NCBI GenBank assembly: GCA_019058315.1
Contig: JAHPZH010000001.1
Coordinates: 343,536 to 407,535 of the forward strand
Direction of reading: 5' to 3'
From: Candidatus Helarchaeota archaeon
Lineage (GTDB): Archaea; Asgardarchaeota; Lokiarchaeia; Helarchaeales; RDOG01
DNA: 64,000 nt
The notes beneath the pieces were generated by a model, which was not told the origin of the DNA, did not search any database, and worked only from the letters and a program-made list of their open reading frames with translations. The position numbers and the translations under genes are program-made. This document shows, piece after piece, positions 6,349 through 11,316 of the stretch; positions within the stretch are counted from its first letter, which is position 1; every line of letters begins with the position of its first letter.

Positions 6349-7224
6349 ATGAAACAAGAGCGTTTAATCAAAAAATTACAAAGACTTAATTTGACAAAAG
6401 AGGAAGCAACCCTATTTCTTTTTCTCTTAACCATTAAATCCGCAACTATCCGAGAAATTCACAATTCAAAGGAATTTTGTTTGAAACAACGACCCAATCT
6501 TTACAAAACACTTAATAATTTGAAGGAAAAGAATTTTGTAGTTGAAGAGGTTAAGGGTGGAAAAAAAAGATTTTTTCCTATTGCACCTCATATGGTGATT
6601 GAGAATTATATTTCTAATCAAGAACAAGAGCTTAAAAAGTTAAAAGAATCAGCACCCAAATTATCTGAAGCAATGGAAAATATTTTAAAAACACCATTTG
6701 AGGAATTTTCCCCAATTCCTGATCCTTTAATTGAATTCATAAGCGGTGTTGTAAATGAGGATTGGAGTATTAGGGAACCTCCTGAGATAATTAAAAAAAG
6801 GGAACTGAGAGCGATTATTTATAGTGTCGAATTTAATACACATCGGCAATTTGCAGGTAATAGTGCTGGTCTTGTTCTCTTTATATTTCGATATCAACAA
6901 CATAGGGATGAATCAATAGAAGAAGTTAAACAATACCAACAGTCTCAATTCGAACAAGCACTTAAATCATTTAATGGACAGGGATTTTTTCAAATTGAAG
7001 ATTATTGGGTTGAAAAAAAATTTATGGAAATAAATGATATGAAGTTTGATTATTCTGAATTTCACGTAAAATCAAATATCTCATCTGATTCTGCAAGTGG
7101 TATAATAACCCTTCTTTTTAAAGAACATCCCACTAAAATTATATCACTTTGGGCAGCAGATCTCAAGGATTTCTTCGATCTTATAACACGAGTAACTAAA
7201 AAATTTGAAGTTTCAACTTTTTAA
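6349..7224 (+). CDS. TrmB-family HTH transcriptional regulator
   Basis: LQRLNLTKEEA..LL, RPNLYKTLNNLKEKNFV..RFFPIAP winged HTH followed by a coiled coil. Confidence 0.75.
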   Translation: MKQERLIKKLQRLNLTKEEATLFLFLLTIKSATIREIHNSKEFCLKQRPNLYKTLNNLKEKNFVVEEVKGGKKRFFPIAPHMVIENYISNQEQELKKLKESAPKLSEAMENILKTPFEEFSPIPDPLIEFISGVVNEDWSIREPPEIIKKRELRAIIYSVEFNTHRQFAGNSAGLVLFIFRYQQHRDESIEEVKQYQQSQFEQALKSFNGQGFFQIEDYWVEKKFMEINDMKFDYSEFHVKSNISSDSASGIITLLFKEHPTKIISLWAADLKDFFDLITRVTKKFEVSTF

Positions 7225-7351: not shown

Positions 7352-8272
7352 ATGAAAGTTCTAATAATGGGACTTAGAAGTGCTGGTAAAACTACTTTAG
7401 TTAAGCACGTTCTTGAAGGAAAAGAATGGGAAGAGATAAAAAACCTTAATCCAACAGAATTTGTTGAAACTACGAGCTATAAATATAGGGGGCTACTTGA
7501 TGTAACAACTTTCGATTGCGGAGGGCAAGAATCGTTCATTTTATCATACTTTACGGAGCAATGGAGTCATAAAATATTTAGTAATGTTTCTGTATTTATT
7601 TGGATTATCGATAGCTCTGATTTACGTACCTTTCGTGAATCTAAAAAAGAATTATTAAAATCCTTAAACTTCATAAAAAATTATTCACCTGGGGCACGTA
7701 TTTTTGTAATTGCAACTAAATACGATGTTAATAAAATTTCCTTAAAAAATATTCGTAAAGAACTAGCAGGATTGGGGATTGAACAAATATCTTCTACCTC
7801 TATTCCACTGGGTATTGCACGTGAAATTGTTTGTACGATTTTAGATGGAACATTGACCAAGGAACTCAAATCAAAAATAACTAAATTGGAAAAAGAGCTT
7901 AATAGATTTAATAAAAAAATAAATGCAATAGCCACATTGATAATTAATAAATCAGATGGTCTAGAATTAGCTTCTTCGGTTAGTTCGGAAAAATTAAATC
8001 CTGAAATTTTAAAATACATATCAACAAAGGCGTTAGTTGAACCATTAAATAGCACCCGACCAATCTTTACTAAACTTCAAAAGGAAGGATATGTCGATTT
8101 GCCAGACGCAGAGTTGGGACTATGGCATGTCGGAACTTATTATGTGAATTTATTTAATATCAATGAACAATTTGCTCTATTCTCTATATTAGAAGAAAGA
8201 AATTTCAAAATAAAAACCTTAATAGGTTATTGTGATTCAATAAAAAACTCAGTTTTACAGTTTTTAGGCTAA
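7352..8272 (+). CDS. Rag/Gtr1-like small GTPase with C-terminal roadblock domain
   Basis: GLRSAGKT, DCGGQESF..YF, IFSNV, SPGARIFVIATKYD; C-terminal ATLIINKSDGLELASS roadblock-like segment. Confidence 0.88.
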   Translation: MKVLIMGLRSAGKTTLVKHVLEGKEWEEIKNLNPTEFVETTSYKYRGLLDVTTFDCGGQESFILSYFTEQWSHKIFSNVSVFIWIIDSSDLRTFRESKKELLKSLNFIKNYSPGARIFVIATKYDVNKISLKNIRKELAGLGIEQISSTSIPLGIAREIVCTILDGTLTKELKSKITKLEKELNRFNKKINAIATLIINKSDGLELASSVSSEKLNPEILKYISTKALVEPLNSTRPIFTKLQKEGYVDLPDAELGLWHVGTYYVNLFNINEQFALFSILEERNFKIKTLIGYCDSIKNSVLQFLG

Positions 8273-8304
8273 ATTCGTGTCAGTAGTTATTTTTATTATG
8301 TATC

Positions 8305-8817
8305 TTACTTTTTCTGCGCTTTTTTAACAGCTTCAAAAAAACCTTTCATCTCATCTATTAATTCCGCTCTTATCGATGTCGGTTTAGCTTTAATTTTTTC
8401 TTGAGGTGGTGTAGGTTTTAAAATAGATTTTCTAAAATCAGCAATTTCTGCTTCAGAAACAGGACCCGTTAGTTTTTGACTATCAATAGGTGGAACACTC
8501 GGTTTTAATTGTTTGGGCATTTCTACTGCTACTTTTGGAGCTTGAGGCGGTAATTCCACTGGTTTTTTGATAAGTGTTTTAAGTTCATCTATATTATTTT
8601 TTATTTGATTAATCATTGATTGGTGAAAAGAATAAATATCTATAATTGTATCAATTCCTCTTTCTAAACTTGTAATTCTTTTTTCTAACTCAATTTCACG
8701 TTGTTCCATCATTCCAAATGCATTAATTATCATTTTGAAAAAGTGATCAAACAAATTAGATACTTCTTCCACATTTCCCTTTTCTAAAGCGTCTGAAAGA
8801 AATTTTCCAAACTCCAT
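8305..8817 (-). CDS. Coiled-coil/Pro-rich protein with beta-thymosin/WH2-like motif
   Basis: Heptad N-half, PVELPPQAP..PSVPP linker, AEIADFRKSILKPTPPQEK, C-terminal amphipathic helix SIRAELIDEMK. Confidence 0.65.
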   Translation of the reverse strand: MEFGKFLSDALEKGNVEEVSNLFDHFFKMIINAFGMMEQREIELEKRITSLERGIDTIIDIYSFHQSMINQIKNNIDELKTLIKKPVELPPQAPKVAVEMPKQLKPSVPPIDSQKLTGPVSEAEIADFRKSILKPTPPQEKIKAKPTSIRAELIDEMKGFFEAVKKAQKK

Positions 8818-8893: not shown

Positions 8894-10261
8894 TTAACCG
8901 CTTATTTCCTCTAATTCTTTTACTTTATTTAAAAGTTCTAATGCTTCATTATTTTCGGGGTCAATTTTTAAAGCTTTATTTATAAAATCAATGGCTTTTT
9001 TATAATTTTCTAAATTAACATAAGAAACGCTCATTCCCAGCATAGCCTCAATATCTTCGTCGTCTAATTCAAGGACTTTTCGGTAATTTTTAATGGCTTC
9101 TTTAAATTCACCTTTTTCTTTTAATAAACATGCTTTGTTGTAGAAACTATCAATATCATATTCATTTAGTTCTATTACTTTGTCAAAAAATTTTATTGCT
9201 TCATCATTTTGATTTAATTGTTTTAGAACACAGGCTTTATTAAAATATGCTAAATGGTAAGAAGGATCGAGTTTGATCGCTTTATCAAATATTTCTAAAG
9301 CTTCTTCAAGCTTTAAGAGATCTTGAAGAATTAGGCCCTTATTATTTAAAGCATCCAAATAATCATTTTTCAATTCAATAGCTTTGTTATAACTCTCTAA
9401 AGCCTTTTCTTTTTGCTCAAGTCTACTTAAAATATTCCCTTTTAAGAACCACGCTCTATGGTTTTTTGGTTCATATTCCAATATTTTATCAAAACAAGCT
9501 AAAGCTTCATCAGTTCTATTTAATTCCTCAAAAATATTTGCTTCTGTGAATAAAGCTGCAATATAATTAGGTTCGTATTTTAATAATTTATTTAAACAGT
9601 CTAAGGCTTCTTTAAATCTCTCTAAATTATATAGAATTAAACCTTTTTTATATAATAGTGAGTAATTTTTAGGGTATTTTCTACTCAAGGTATCAAGAAT
9701 TTGAATAACTCTCTCCTGTTCGTTTAAGTAACAAAAAACGACTGTATCAAAAGCCATTATTAAATCTTCTTCAATTAGATCGGAAAGAAAGGCTTTTTTA
9801 TAATATTTCATTGCTTCATCTTTATTTCCCAATTCTTCTACTATAATTCCTTTAATGATTAATGCATAGTTTAATTCGGGAGTAAAAGATAGAATTTTAT
9901 TAAAGCATTCAAGAGCACCTTTGAAATGACGTAATAGGAAATAAGTTAATCCAACTTTGAACCAAGCTTCTTTATTTTCAGGATCTTTTTCCAAAACTAA
10001 TTTAAAATGATCTAATGCTCTCTTATATGCTCCTAATTCAAAGGCTACATTTCCTTTGACTAAATTATTATTTATATTACTTTCGTTTGATTGACCAAAT
10101 TCAATATCTCTAAATTGGAAATCTTTAATTGATGCCACTCCAAACTTAACAATTTCATCAAATGTGAGCGCTTTTCCTTGAGTTTCTCCCCAACCAATCT
10201 TTTTTTTCATTTTATATATTTCTTTGTCGTCTAAATATTTTCTTAGCAACTCATTTTTCAA
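8894..10261 (-). CDS. TPR repeat protein
   Basis: About ten 34-aa TPR units (e.g. AWFLKGNILSRLEQKEKALESYNKAIELKND). Confidence 0.95.
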   Translation of the reverse strand: MKNELLRKYLDDKEIYKMKKKIGWGETQGKALTFDEIVKFGVASIKDFQFRDIEFGQSNESNINNNLVKGNVAFELGAYKRALDHFKLVLEKDPENKEAWFKVGLTYFLLRHFKGALECFNKILSFTPELNYALIIKGIIVEELGNKDEAMKYYKKAFLSDLIEEDLIMAFDTVVFCYLNEQERVIQILDTLSRKYPKNYSLLYKKGLILYNLERFKEALDCLNKLLKYEPNYIAALFTEANIFEELNRTDEALACFDKILEYEPKNHRAWFLKGNILSRLEQKEKALESYNKAIELKNDYLDALNNKGLILQDLLKLEEALEIFDKAIKLDPSYHLAYFNKACVLKQLNQNDEAIKFFDKVIELNEYDIDSFYNKACLLKEKGEFKEAIKNYRKVLELDDEDIEAMLGMSVSYVNLENYKKAIDFINKALKIDPENNEALELLNKVKELEEISG

Positions 10262-10383: not shown

Positions 10384-11316
10384 TTAATCTAACTTCAAAA
10401 CTGAAAGAATATCTGGCTTATATTTCTCGATAGCTTTTTCAATTCTTGCTAATGAATCCAAAGCCGAGATTGTAAATAATGAAACAGTCTTATGTAAATT
10501 GACAATACAAATCGAATTTTCTCCGACTCTATATACCGAAAAATCCGATCTATTATTTTGTAAGAATCCCTGTTTCTTAAATTCTTTTAGAAGTGGGGCT
10601 AAAAAGGGAGGTTCGACTAATTTTAAGCTGATATACTCTAAAAATTCTGCTTTTTCCATACTTAGATATTTTTCAAAATGAGATGCAATTTCAATGCCTT
10701 CATCTGAATTGAATAAAATTGAGACACTCCCATTAATTCTATCGGTGAGTTTTTGTAATAAATCTTGCAATGTAAGTAACCGACCCCCCATTACTTCTTC
10801 CATAAGGTCATCTAAAATTCTCTTAACCTTAAGCTTTGCAGAATTATTTTTTATTGATGTTGAAAAGTAATGTATCTTTATTTTTGGCTCCACTAATTCA
10901 TTTACAATTTTTTTAATCTCTTTTAATTCAACTTTCTTTTTATCGTTTTTATGTGCAAGAATAAAAATTTTAGCATTTGGAGAATATTCCTGTAAAGCAA
11001 TATAGTTTTTTGTAAATTCGGTAATTGATTTTCTAATCTTTCCTTTATCGGATGAGTCTATCACCCAAATCATAATAGTTACTTTATTGAAAACCTTTAT
11101 TCTAAATTGGTCAGTTCTATATTCCTTCAAAAATTGTACTTGTCCACCACAGTCAAATATACTTATATTAATCATTTGTCTGTAATTATACTGATGTGTT
11201 TCTAGGAATTGTGTCGGGGATAGGTTTTTTAGCTCTTGAAATGTTTTATTTTCAAAAACATTTTTTGCTATACTTGTTTTTCCAGCATTATCTAGTCCCA
11301 TCATAATTATTTTCAA
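10384..11316 (-). CDS. Rag/Gtr1-like small GTPase with C-terminal roadblock domain
   Basis: GLDNAGKTS, DCGGQVQF, SPNAKIFILAHKND (compare RagA SPDAKIFCLVHKMD), FSTSI; C-terminal SILFNSDEGIEIAS. Confidence 0.9.
   Translation of the reverse strand: MKIIMMGLDNAGKTSIAKNVFENKTFQELKNLSPTQFLETHQYNYRQMINISIFDCGGQVQFLKEYRTDQFRIKVFNKVTIMIWVIDSSDKGKIRKSITEFTKNYIALQEYSPNAKIFILAHKNDKKKVELKEIKKIVNELVEPKIKIHYFSTSIKNNSAKLKVKRILDDLMEEVMGGRLLTLQDLLQKLTDRINGSVSILFNSDEGIEIASHFEKYLSMEKAEFLEYISLKLVEPPFLAPLLKEFKKQGFLQNNRSDFSVYRVGENSICIVNLHKTVSLFTISALDSLARIEKAIEKYKPDILSVLKLD

What the first reader, a model, noticed from the sequence alone, without database searches (positions are those of the whole stretch)
8305..8817. 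Archaeal protein carrying a near-canonical beta-thymosin/WH2 actin-binding motif behind a Pro-rich linker
Seen: nt 8395-8451 encode AEIADFRKSILKPTPPQEK. Known: the thymosin-beta4 core is AEIEKFDKSKLKKTETQEK. The two match at 12 of 19 positions with no gaps, including the amphipathic I/F helix, an LKxT motif (LKPT also occurs in WH2 domains) and QEK. Upstream lie a coiled coil and a Pro-rich linker. Downstream is a second amphipathic helix (SIRAELIDEMK), resembling a second WH2 helix or a WASP central helix. Inference: the order oligomerisation / Pro-rich / WH2 recalls eukaryotic actin regulators such as WASP/WAVE. Asgard actin, profilin and gelsolin are established, but I do not recall a characterised Asgard beta-thymosin-type protein.
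Basis: partly seen in the sequence, partly recalled or inferred. Interest (0 to 1): 0.92.

Follow-up and report, generated by a model that had tools for sequence, protein, structure and literature searches.

The report
Asgard Rag-GTPase partner with WH2-like tail
A small, conserved protein of one order of Asgard archaea carries a thymosin/WH2-like peptide, but it fails the formal family tests, actin binding is untested, and its one firm link is to a neighbouring Rag-type GTPase gene.

Summary
The minus-strand ORF 8305-8817 (170 aa) encodes AEIADFRKSILKPTPPQEK at nt 8395-8451. It matches the thymosin-beta4 core at 12 of 19 positions, the best such match in the 5.8 Mb genome.

The gene is real. 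It belongs to a small family (14 representatives among 1.84 billion proteins), found in one Helarchaeales-like order. The architecture is a long N-terminal helix, a disordered linker and a conserved 45-residue C-terminal module (helix, LKPxP, helix).

The motif core I..FR...LKP.P..E is conserved in orthologs. However, divergent members match thymosin at only 5-7 of 19.
- No member matched Pfam Thymosin.
- Pfam WH2 is sub-threshold in 1 of 13 members (16.5 bits against a 23.1-bit cut-off).
- Profile-profile similarity is modest (P about 0.002, probability 20%).
- The linker is not always Pro-rich.
- No Arp2/3 subunits were found.

New here: in 11 of 12 loci the gene lies tail-to-tail with a Rag/Gtr1-type GTPase, and both genes occur in the same 6 of 31 genomes.

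My odds are: docking peptide for a non-actin partner, most likely the Rag-like GTPase, 0.45; WH2-like G-actin binder, about 0.27.

This scan has flagged WH2/thymosin-like motifs before on other Asgard DNA, in other protein families.

The parts
8305..8817 (-). Whole gene (170 aa plus stop), member of a small unnamed Asgard family
   Evidence: Open frame. Homologs at 28-90% identity. No Pfam or NCBIfam family.
8566..8772 (-). Residues 16-84: one long helix (probable coiled coil) with the conserved motif MxINAxGMxExR
   Evidence: AF2 pLDDT above 90. Invariant M29, N32, G35, M36, E38, R47 and E52 among the ten closer homologs. Mean pairwise identity 39%.
8464..8565 (-). Residues 85-118: disordered linker, 24% Pro in this protein
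   Evidence: pLDDT below 50. Mean identity 21%. Length is variable and Pro content ranges 0-37% across the family.
8332..8463 (-). Residues 119-162: conserved C-terminal module, P.SEEEI..FRK.(I/L)LKP.P..E....P.SIR..L..EMK.FF
   Evidence: The most conserved part of the protein, at 58% mean identity. Nine columns are invariant across 20 sequences.
8395..8451 (-). Residues 123-141: the 19-mer matching the thymosin-beta4 core at 12/19 (helix A plus LKPT)
   Evidence: hhalign register.
8311..8373 (-). Residues 149-169: second amphipathic helix (helix B) and short basic tail
   Evidence: AF2 helix 149-169. Invariant R150, L153, E156 and K158. Not predicted to bind lipid.
7352..8272 (+). Rag1: Rag/Gtr1-type GTPase with a C-terminal roadblock-like half, convergent neighbour (32-nt gap)
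   Evidence: Pfam Gtr1_RagA 88.5 bits. Foldseek best hits are RagA/C, Gtr1/2 and LokiRagO over about 310 columns, E 4e-16. Adjacent in 11 of 12 loci.
8894..10261 (-). TPR protein (455 aa) directly upstream and co-oriented
   Evidence: Pfam TPR_1 204 bits. Conserved upstream only in close relatives L010 and L011.
10384..11316 (-). Rag2: second Rag/Gtr1-type GTPase paralog, co-oriented with the TPR gene and the 170-aa gene
   Evidence: Pfam Gtr1_RagA 109.8 bits. 34-36% identical to Rag1. Present in L010 only among the other loci.

Best explanation
The gene encodes a lineage-restricted adaptor or effector of the Rag/Gtr1-type GTPase encoded tail-to-tail with it. A long N-terminal helix, probably a coiled-coil dimer with a conserved MxINAxGMxExR patch, carries a flexible linker of variable length. 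At the end of the linker sits a 45-residue peptide that probably folds only on binding (amphipathic helix, extended LKPxP, second amphipathic helix).

I think this peptide most likely docks on a non-actin partner. The Rag-like GTPase or its roadblock dimer is the leading candidate. On this reading the resemblance to thymosin-beta4 is a partly accidental convergence of a short K/E-rich helix-plus-LKxT pattern.

Shown: the gene is real, it has this architecture, the module is conserved, and it is adjacent to and co-occurs with the GTPase. Inferred: physical binding, and which end of the protein binds what.
For: Adjacency. The family gene is the convergent neighbour of a Rag1 ortholog in 11 of 12 loci with enough flank, with gaps from -4 to about 124 nt. 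All other neighbours differ between loci.

Co-occurrence. Rag1 orthologs (at least 54% identity) and the family occur in the same 6 of 31 genomes. Both were not found in G001, which is of the same family and 94% complete. Neither was found in the other families of the class that were searched, 54 genomes for the family gene and 24 of those for Rag1.

Rag1 is a full-length Rag-type GTPase: Pfam 88.5 bits, and Foldseek hits RagA/C and Gtr1/2 at E 4e-16.

Similarity to thymosin/WH2 is statistically weak at family level. Divergent members score 5-7/19. No Pfam Thymosin hit was found. The family HMM scores thymosins at about 10 bits, equal to background in this genome.

Amphipathic helices are the usual ligands of roadblock dimers, as with LAMTOR1 around Ragulator and the Rags (background in PMC10933270).
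Against: Gene adjacency shows only that the two proteins are functionally tied. It does not show that the C-terminal module is the part that contacts the GTPase; the N-terminal helix could do that.

The genes are convergent, so they are not co-transcribed.

The long paralogs (P0011-P0013) keep both conserved modules, yet P0012 is not next to a Rag gene.

The first half of the module does align to thymosin better than 99.7% of composition-matched shuffles. One member reaches Pfam WH2 at E 0.0068.
Confidence: 0.45

Rival explanations
1. The C-terminal module is a WH2/beta-thymosin-type G-actin-binding peptide. [quoted passage not shown] LKPx runs along the actin surface, and helix B either caps the pointed face as in thymosin or acts as a second contact. 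The coiled coil would present two such peptides. The N-terminal helix would couple them to the Rag-like GTPase, giving a GTPase-linked regulator of actin monomers.
For: 12/19 identity to the Tb4 core is the best window in the whole genome.

The conserved family core I..FR...LKP.P..E coincides with the thymosin/WH2 key positions at identical spacing.

hhalign gives P 0.0012 in that register, and 0/300 and 1/300 column shuffles reach the score.

Pfam WH2 gives E 0.0068 for P0012.

The helix, extended, helix topology lies in a disordered tail.

L-[KR]-P-[TV] occurs in accepted WH2 domains of espin and Spire.

The host has an actin about 60-64% identical to eukaryotic actins, and also gelsolin-domain proteins. 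LKKT-like motifs already contact actin in Asgard gelsolins (PMC7444086, PMC9433394).
Against: Neither Pfam model reaches its cut-off. No member matched Thymosin, and P0001 matched neither model.

phmmer and hmmsearch scores are at noise level.

Most members match Tb4 at only 5-7/19.

The position of thymosin M6 is an almost invariant Glu, and the position of D13 is an invariant Arg.

Helix B, the best-conserved part, has no thymosin similarity.

The family is confined to one order, although actin is found across the Asgard lineages in the hit list.

The first-stage reader flags such K/E-rich strings often: at least 24 notes in at least 17 genomes. The look-elsewhere penalty is therefore large.
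Confidence: 0.27
2. Helix B plus the basic tail is a membrane-targeting amphipathic helix. The protein would then tether the Rag-like GTPase to the membrane, acting as a functional analogue of LAMTOR1/Ego1 without lipidation.
For: The helix is C-terminal and amphipathic, and a Lys-rich tail follows it in P0001 and its close relatives. The protein is coupled to a Rag-type GTPase. Its size is similar to that of LAMTOR1/Ego1 (my own knowledge).
Against: A HeliQuest-type discrimination factor is 0.1-0.4 for most members, below the 0.68 limit that I recall. Net helix charge is mostly zero or negative. Tail charge ranges from -5 to +4. Long variants continue for about 100 acidic residues. Invariant R150, E156 and K158 argue for a protein contact. 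No Pfam LAMTOR or Ego1 hit was found.
Confidence: 0.08
3. The C-terminal module binds some other protein that is neither actin nor the Rag-like GTPase, for example the upstream TPR protein. The thymosin likeness is chance.
For: The TPR gene lies directly upstream and is co-oriented in the window and in two close relatives. TPR domains bind short peptides (established knowledge).
Against: The TPR gene is missing from the neighbourhood in all divergent loci that keep the module unchanged.
Confidence: 0.15

Closest known systems
Beta-thymosins (Pfam PF01290; thymosin beta-4)
   Same: An amphipathic helix with I and F at the same spacing before L-K-x-T, then ..E-K. A second helix follows about 12-15 residues later. 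The region is disordered on its own. The profile alignment is in register over 24 columns.
   Different: No PF01290 hit. The third and fifth places of LKKTET are invariant Pro. Thymosin M6 corresponds to Glu and D13 to Arg. Helix B is unrelated in sequence. The module is the tail of a 170-aa coiled-coil protein, not a free 43-aa peptide.
WH2 domain (Pfam PF02205), including the LKPT/LRPV variants of espin and Spire and the LKKT-like linkers of Asgard 2DGel gelsolins
   Same: A helix followed by L-[KR]-P-[TV] as in espin (SLKPT) and Spire WH2-D (LRPV); Spire1C also has LKPTPP in a linker. A hydrophobic residue followed by Arg (F-R here, I-R in many WH2 domains, from my own knowledge). One member hits PF02205 positions 11-28.
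   Different: The score is below the gathering cut-off, and only 1 of 13 members hits. The helix-to-Leu spacing is that of thymosin (5 residues), not the usual WH2 spacing (6). The definition 'Leu, two basic residues, Thr/Val' used for Asgard gelsolins (PMC9433394) is not met. Actin contact has not been shown.
WASP/WAVE-type nucleation-promoting factors
   Same: The order is regulatory or oligomerising N-terminus, disordered linker, WH2-like helix, then a second amphipathic helix. The protein is genetically linked to a small GTPase.
   Different: No conserved polyproline. No acidic-Trp region; the acidic tails of P0012 and P0013 lack Trp. ARPC2 and ARPC4 were not found in the genome. The GTPase is Rag-type, not Rho-type.
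LAMTOR1 / Ego1 scaffolds of Rag/Gtr GTPases
   Same: A small, mostly helical and disordered protein functionally tied to Rag-type GTPases with roadblock domains.
   Different: No sequence or Pfam similarity. No lipidation signal. The membrane-helix test was negative. Other Ragulator subunits were not examined.
WH2-like 50-51-aa microproteins of Lokiarchaeia noted earlier in this scan (AI notes, unverified)
   Same: An Asgard protein restricted to one order, whose short module resembles WH2/thymosin and whose actin binding is untested.
   Different: A different family: a word-based look-up with P0001 found only this window. The architecture differs (coiled coil plus tail). No profilin fusion or tandem array was found among the 14 family representatives.

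Membership tests
Beta-thymosin (PF01290) | Scores at or above the Pfam gathering cut-off (24.8 bits) | tested here: not met
   No hit at E<=10 for P0001 or for 13 family C-modules. The genome-wide PF01290 scan does not report this ORF.
Beta-thymosin (PF01290) | N-terminal amphipathic helix with hydrophobic residues 8 and 5 positions before the Leu of LKKT | tested here: met
   I125 and F128 precede L133 with spacing identical to Tb4 I9, F12 and L17. F128 and L133 are invariant and I125 is nearly so. AF2 helix 122-132.
Beta-thymosin (PF01290) | LKKTET(Q)EK signature | tested here: not met
   The family has L-K-P-[TVIAP]-P-x-x-E-x. Pro is invariant at the K19 place and nearly so at the E21 place.
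Beta-thymosin (PF01290) | C-terminal helix related to thymosin residues 30-40 | tested here: inconclusive
   A helix is predicted at the right distance, but hhalign aligns only columns 3-26, so the second half shows no similarity.
Beta-thymosin / WH2 | Binds monomeric actin in the barbed-end cleft | not testable with these tools
   The co-folding job with host actin was not folded by the tool. No biochemical data exist.
WH2 (PF02205) | Scores at or above the Pfam gathering cut-off (23.1 bits) | tested here: not met
   The best score is 16.5 bits, E 0.0068, in 1 of 13 members (P0012:192-250). P0001 has none.
WH2 (PF02205) | LKKT-like tetrad: Leu, basic, basic (or Pro as in espin and Spire), Thr/Val | tested here: inconclusive
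   LKPT, LKPV, LKPI, LKPA and LRPP occur in the family. The strict definition with two basic residues (PMC9433394) is not met. The espin SLKPT and Spire LRPV variants match.
WASP/WAVE-type NPF | Conserved proline-rich (profilin/SH3-binding) region before the WH2 | tested here: not met
   Linker Pro content is 0-37%, the sequence is not conserved, and there are no polyproline runs in P0001. Pfam profilin was not found in the genome, but this HMM may miss divergent Asgard profilins.
WASP/WAVE-type NPF | Acidic region with Trp, and an Arp2/3 complex to act on | tested here: not met
   P0001 ends in a basic tail. The acidic tails of P0012 and P0013 have no Trp. ARPC4 and ARPC2 HMMs find nothing in the 94%-complete genome, but the controls cannot validate that search.
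Ragulator LAMTOR1 / Ego1 | Sequence family membership and a membrane anchor | tested here: not met
   No Pfam hit at E<=10. The C-terminal helix is not lipid-binding by the HeliQuest-type score.
Ragulator LAMTOR1 / Ego1 | Obligate association with Rag-type GTPases | tested here: met
   This holds at the genomic level only: adjacency in 11 of 12 loci and an identical presence pattern in 31 genomes. Physical binding was not tested.

The most novel reading that the evidence does not exclude
The family is a GTPase-coupled, dimeric WH2/beta-thymosin-type actin-monomer binder. The N-terminal helix would be read by the neighbouring Rag-type GTPase, and the C-terminal helix, LKPxP, helix peptide would grip actin in the barbed-end cleft. 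That would be a prokaryotic example of small-GTPase control of actin through a WH2-like peptide, a logic so far known only from eukaryotes and their pathogens.
Probability: 0.2. Interest if true: 0.88.

Novelty: new variant of a known kind. Interest (0 to 1): 0.55.

Why it matters
Profilin and gelsolin are the actin regulators described so far in Asgard archaea (PMC12050087). A free-standing WH2/thymosin-type module would add a third class. It would also push this eukaryotic peptide logic back before eukaryogenesis, or else show that it was invented independently.

A second point holds whatever the actin answer turns out to be. Partners of Asgard Rag-like GTPases are said to be hard to infer from genome layout (PMC10933270). 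Here a strictly conserved gene pair nominates one concrete partner for a Rag-type GTPase, and both proteins are small and easy to express. The claim is cheap to test by pull-downs with Rag1 and with actin.

Tried and rejected
- Co-folding of host actin (alignment A4) with residues 112-170 (alignment A3). There is no verdict either way, and I did not try to obtain it by another route.
- Sequence searches of the C-module against PDB chains, both as a single sequence and as a profile. No thymosin or WH2 chain was found, only noise such as ATP synthase d and eS27.
- Foldseek of the 170-aa model against PDB found nothing, as expected for a single long helix.
- Genome-wide hits of the Thymosin and WH2 HMMs elsewhere in the genome score no better than hits in the control genomes and none reaches the cut-off. 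The one I inspected, the E 0.47 hit at C5:1350995, lies antisense inside a real 331-aa gene.
- Stand-alone 74-76-aa versions (P0015, P0017). P0017 is preceded by an overlapping 147-aa ORF on a 683-bp contig, so it is probably a split gene and not a thymosin-sized protein.
- P0005 and an actin (P0035) both sit on contigs of 7431 bp. They are not the same contig, because no actin is present there.
- The membrane-targeting-helix reading is not supported.
- The VCA-like reading of helix B plus the acidic tails rests only on my memory of the WASP C-helix. There is no Trp, and no ARPC subunits were found.
- The K/E-rich repeat protein beside the actin gene is not conserved next to actin in a relative.

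Full report
OBSERVATION. The minus-strand ORF 8305-8817 is open and encodes 170 residues. Residues 123-141, encoded by nt 8395-8451, read AEIADFRKSILKPTPPQEK. They match the thymosin-beta4 core AEIEKFDKSKLKKTETQEK at 12 of 19 positions without gaps.

I scanned every six-frame ORF of at least 50 aa in the 5.8 Mb genome, about 3.0 million residues. This is the single best window. The next best is 10/19, six windows reach 9/19 and 94 reach 8/19. A composition model expects 4.5e-4 windows at 12/19 or better, and the real tail is some 3-5 times heavier than that model. The string is therefore really there and is an outlier for this one query. It was, however, noticed post hoc by a reader who flags such strings often: at least 24 notes in at least 17 Asgard genomes.

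THE GENE AND ITS FAMILY. The gene is real.
- A word-index search found six relatives at 48-90% identity, labelled by their sources as Helarchaeota, Hodarchaeota or Promethearchaeota MAGs.
- An exhaustive profile search of 1.84 billion representatives found only 14 proteins, none of them eukaryotic.
- Among 61 related genomes the family is present in the own genome and in all five genomes of two sister families of the same order.
- It was not found in the one other genome of the own family (94% complete), nor in 54 genomes of other families of the class, apart from one weak coiled-coil hit.
- No Pfam or NCBIfam family applies.

ARCHITECTURE. AlphaFold2, run with a 20-sequence alignment, predicts the following:
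- a short helix at 3-13;
- one long helix at 16-84 (pLDDT above 90), probably a coiled coil;
- disorder at 85-120;
- helix 122-132, an extended stretch 133-148 and helix 149-169.

Mean pairwise identity is 39% in the long helix, 21% in the linker and 58% in the C-terminal module, rising to 64% in its second helix. The module consensus is P.SE(E/D)(E/D)I..FR(K)(K)(L/I)LKP.P(K).E....P.S(I)R..L(h).EMK.(F/Y)F(G). F128, R129, L133, P135, P146, R150, L153, E156 and K158 are invariant across 20 sequences. The N-terminal helix carries its own invariant patch, M29, N32, G35, M36, E38, R47 and E52, among the ten closer homologs. The linker is Pro-rich in this protein (24%), but its Pro content ranges from 0 to 37% in the family. 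'Pro-rich linker' is therefore not a family feature.

IS IT A THYMOSIN OR WH2 DOMAIN? The evidence in favour:
- The positions shared with Tb4 that are conserved in the family are I125, F128, L133 and K134, E140 in most members, and an acidic residue at 124. Their spacing is the same as in Tb4.
- The predicted topology fits.
- In my re-run the score was 17.4. It was reached by 0 of 300 shuffles of the thymosin columns and by 1 of 300 shuffles of the family columns.
- One of 13 members (P0012) hits Pfam WH2 positions 11-28 at 16.5 bits, E 0.0068.
The espin WH2 consensus is NSELLAEIKAGKSLKPT (PMC2173610). In Spire1C, WH2-D ends in LRPV and a linker contains LKPTPP (PMC4574297).

The evidence against:
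- Pfam Thymosin hits no member, and Pfam WH2 stays below its 23.1-bit cut-off.
- phmmer with Tb4 ranks this ORF fourth in its own genome at E 6.7.
- The family HMM scores thymosins at about 10 bits, no better than background ORFs of the genome.
- Sequence and profile searches of PDB chains find no thymosin or WH2 chain.
- The divergent majority of the family matches the Tb4 19-mer at only 5-7 positions, a level that hundreds to thousands of windows reach in this genome. The 12/19 of this protein thus includes several identities at non-conserved positions.
- The place of thymosin M6 holds an almost invariant Glu, the place of D13 an invariant Arg, and the places of K19 and E21 Pro (invariant and nearly invariant).
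- Helix B, the best-conserved element, has no counterpart in the alignment.

Membership in either family is therefore not established. A WH2-like mode of action is not excluded.

CONTEXT. In the window the order on the minus strand is Rag2 (10384-11316), TPR protein (8894-10261), then this gene. A second Rag-type gene, Rag1 (7352-8272, plus strand), converges on its 3' end with a 32-nt gap. I compared twelve loci, consisting of the window, three close relatives, five genomes of the same order and three metagenomic contigs. In eleven of them the family gene is the convergent neighbour of a Rag1 ortholog, with gaps from a 4-nt overlap to about 124 nt.

Everything else changes between loci. The TPR gene and Rag2 are kept only in the closest relatives. 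Elsewhere the flanks hold a B12-binding protein, a 963-aa TrmB-domain protein, a PAS protein, a peptidase or ABC transporter genes. The exception is the long paralog P0012.

Rag1 orthologs at 54-57% identity occur in exactly the same 6 of 31 genomes as the family. Both were not found in G001. These genomes are kin, so this amounts to essentially one clade plus one shared absence.

Rag1 is a full-length Rag-type GTPase. Pfam Gtr1_RagA scores 88.5 bits. A low-confidence AF2 model (pLDDT 62) finds RagA/RagC, Gtr1/Gtr2 and the Asgard LokiRagO as best Foldseek matches over about 310 columns, at E 4e-16. Published work states that partners of Asgard small GTPases are hard to read from genome layout (PMC10933270). 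That makes this fixed pair informative.

HOST ACTIN SYSTEM. The genome encodes a 378-aa actin that is 60-64% identical to eukaryotic actins, several actin-related ORFs and gelsolin-domain proteins. From the printed sequence and my memory of actin numbering, the cleft residues appear conserved, with Y169 replaced by Phe: Y143, G146, T148, I345, L346, L349, T351 and M355. A WH2-type site is therefore plausible. The Pfam HMMs for profilin, ARPC4 and ARPC2 found nothing. The profilin result is weak, because Asgard profilins may be too divergent for this HMM. The absence of ARPC hits removes support for a WASP/WAVE-like nucleation-promoting role.

WHAT COULD NOT BE DONE. 

INTERPRETATION. Four things are firmly shown. 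The family is real and restricted to one order. It has a coiled-coil, linker and peptide architecture. Its most conserved part is a two-helix peptide. It is genomically locked to a Rag-type GTPase. What the peptide binds is inferred.
- Non-actin partner, 0.45. Gene pairing gives the Rag-like GTPase a high prior as a direct partner of one of the two conserved ends. Roadblock dimers typically take amphipathic helices as ligands.
- WH2-like G-actin binding, about 0.27. Actin is the only other partner with specific support, but that support is a P of about 0.002 profile similarity found post hoc.
- Another protein such as the TPR neighbour, 0.15.
- A membrane-tether helix, 0.08. A HeliQuest-type score speaks against this last reading.

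The readings are not fully exclusive. The most interesting combination, in which the N-helix is read by the GTPase and the tail holds actin, gets about 0.2.

COMPARISON AND NOVELTY. In print, Asgard WH2-like elements are the four-residue LKKT-like linkers inside 2DGel gelsolins: LRRV, LKHV, LVDV and LKDV (PMC7444086, PMC9433394, bioRxiv 10.1101/2025.11.30.690169). The full-text searches I ran found no free-standing Asgard thymosin or WH2 protein. Earlier notes of this scan describe a different, order-restricted 50-51-aa WH2-like microprotein family in Lokiarchaeia. One check of that claim partly failed. A word-based look-up with the present protein found no look-alike stretch outside its own window. 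I rate the present family as a new variant of a known kind of element, a short helix-LKxT docking peptide on a GTPase-linked adaptor. Membership in WH2/thymosin is unproven.

Noticed in passing
window 7352-8272 (+), 10384-11316 (-); genome C11:397796-398707: There are three Rag/Gtr1-type GTPase paralogs, each about 306-319 aa with a roadblock-like C-terminal half. Two of them bracket the TPR gene and the 170-aa gene. Rag1-level orthologs were found only in the genomes of this order among those searched; weaker paralog-level hits (31-32% identity) occur in two genomes of another family.
   Followed up: partly
L005:2696-3589 (-) = genome C5, convergent to the actin gene: A 297-aa K/E-rich protein with four tandem units of about 24 aa (...DYIPEELKGKRKLELKDDAR...) lies tail-to-tail with the host actin gene. 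In a relative with 94% identical actin a histone gene sits there instead, so the adjacency is not conserved.
   Followed up: partly
L020:10156-11493 (+), L022:10491-11873 (+): In two genomes of the same order a 445-460-aa protein with an IFT52 GIFT domain (Pfam E 2e-13) lies two genes from the Rag1 ortholog. A 196-212-aa protein with no Pfam match lies between them.
   Followed up: no
window 6349-7224 (+); L020:4083-6974 (+); L022:4852-7746 (+): TrmB-type winged-helix proteins recur near the gene pair. The window has a 291-aa one upstream of Rag1. Two relatives have 963-964-aa ones with long coiled-coil regions upstream of the family gene.
   Followed up: no
P0011, P0012, P0013 (locus L033:4001-5041 for P0012): Long paralogs of the family carry an extra N-terminal helical insert of about 90 aa. 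They also carry an acidic, repetitive tail of about 100 aa, which in P0012 and P0013 ends in ILLV(V/I)DDSET. P0012 is not next to a Rag gene.
   Followed up: partly
genome C2:96229-96405 (-) and C5:148334-149449 (-): An actin-like N-terminal segment lies inside a 1667-aa open frame, and a 575-aa actin-related ORF matches the Pfam actin model in two pieces. These are unusual actin-family architectures.
   Followed up: no
window 8273-8304 and the equivalent spots in L020, L022, L031: The 3' ends of the family gene and Rag1 are 32 nt apart in the window and overlap by 4 nt in three other lineages. The two convergent transcripts may therefore share a terminator region or overlap.
   Followed up: no
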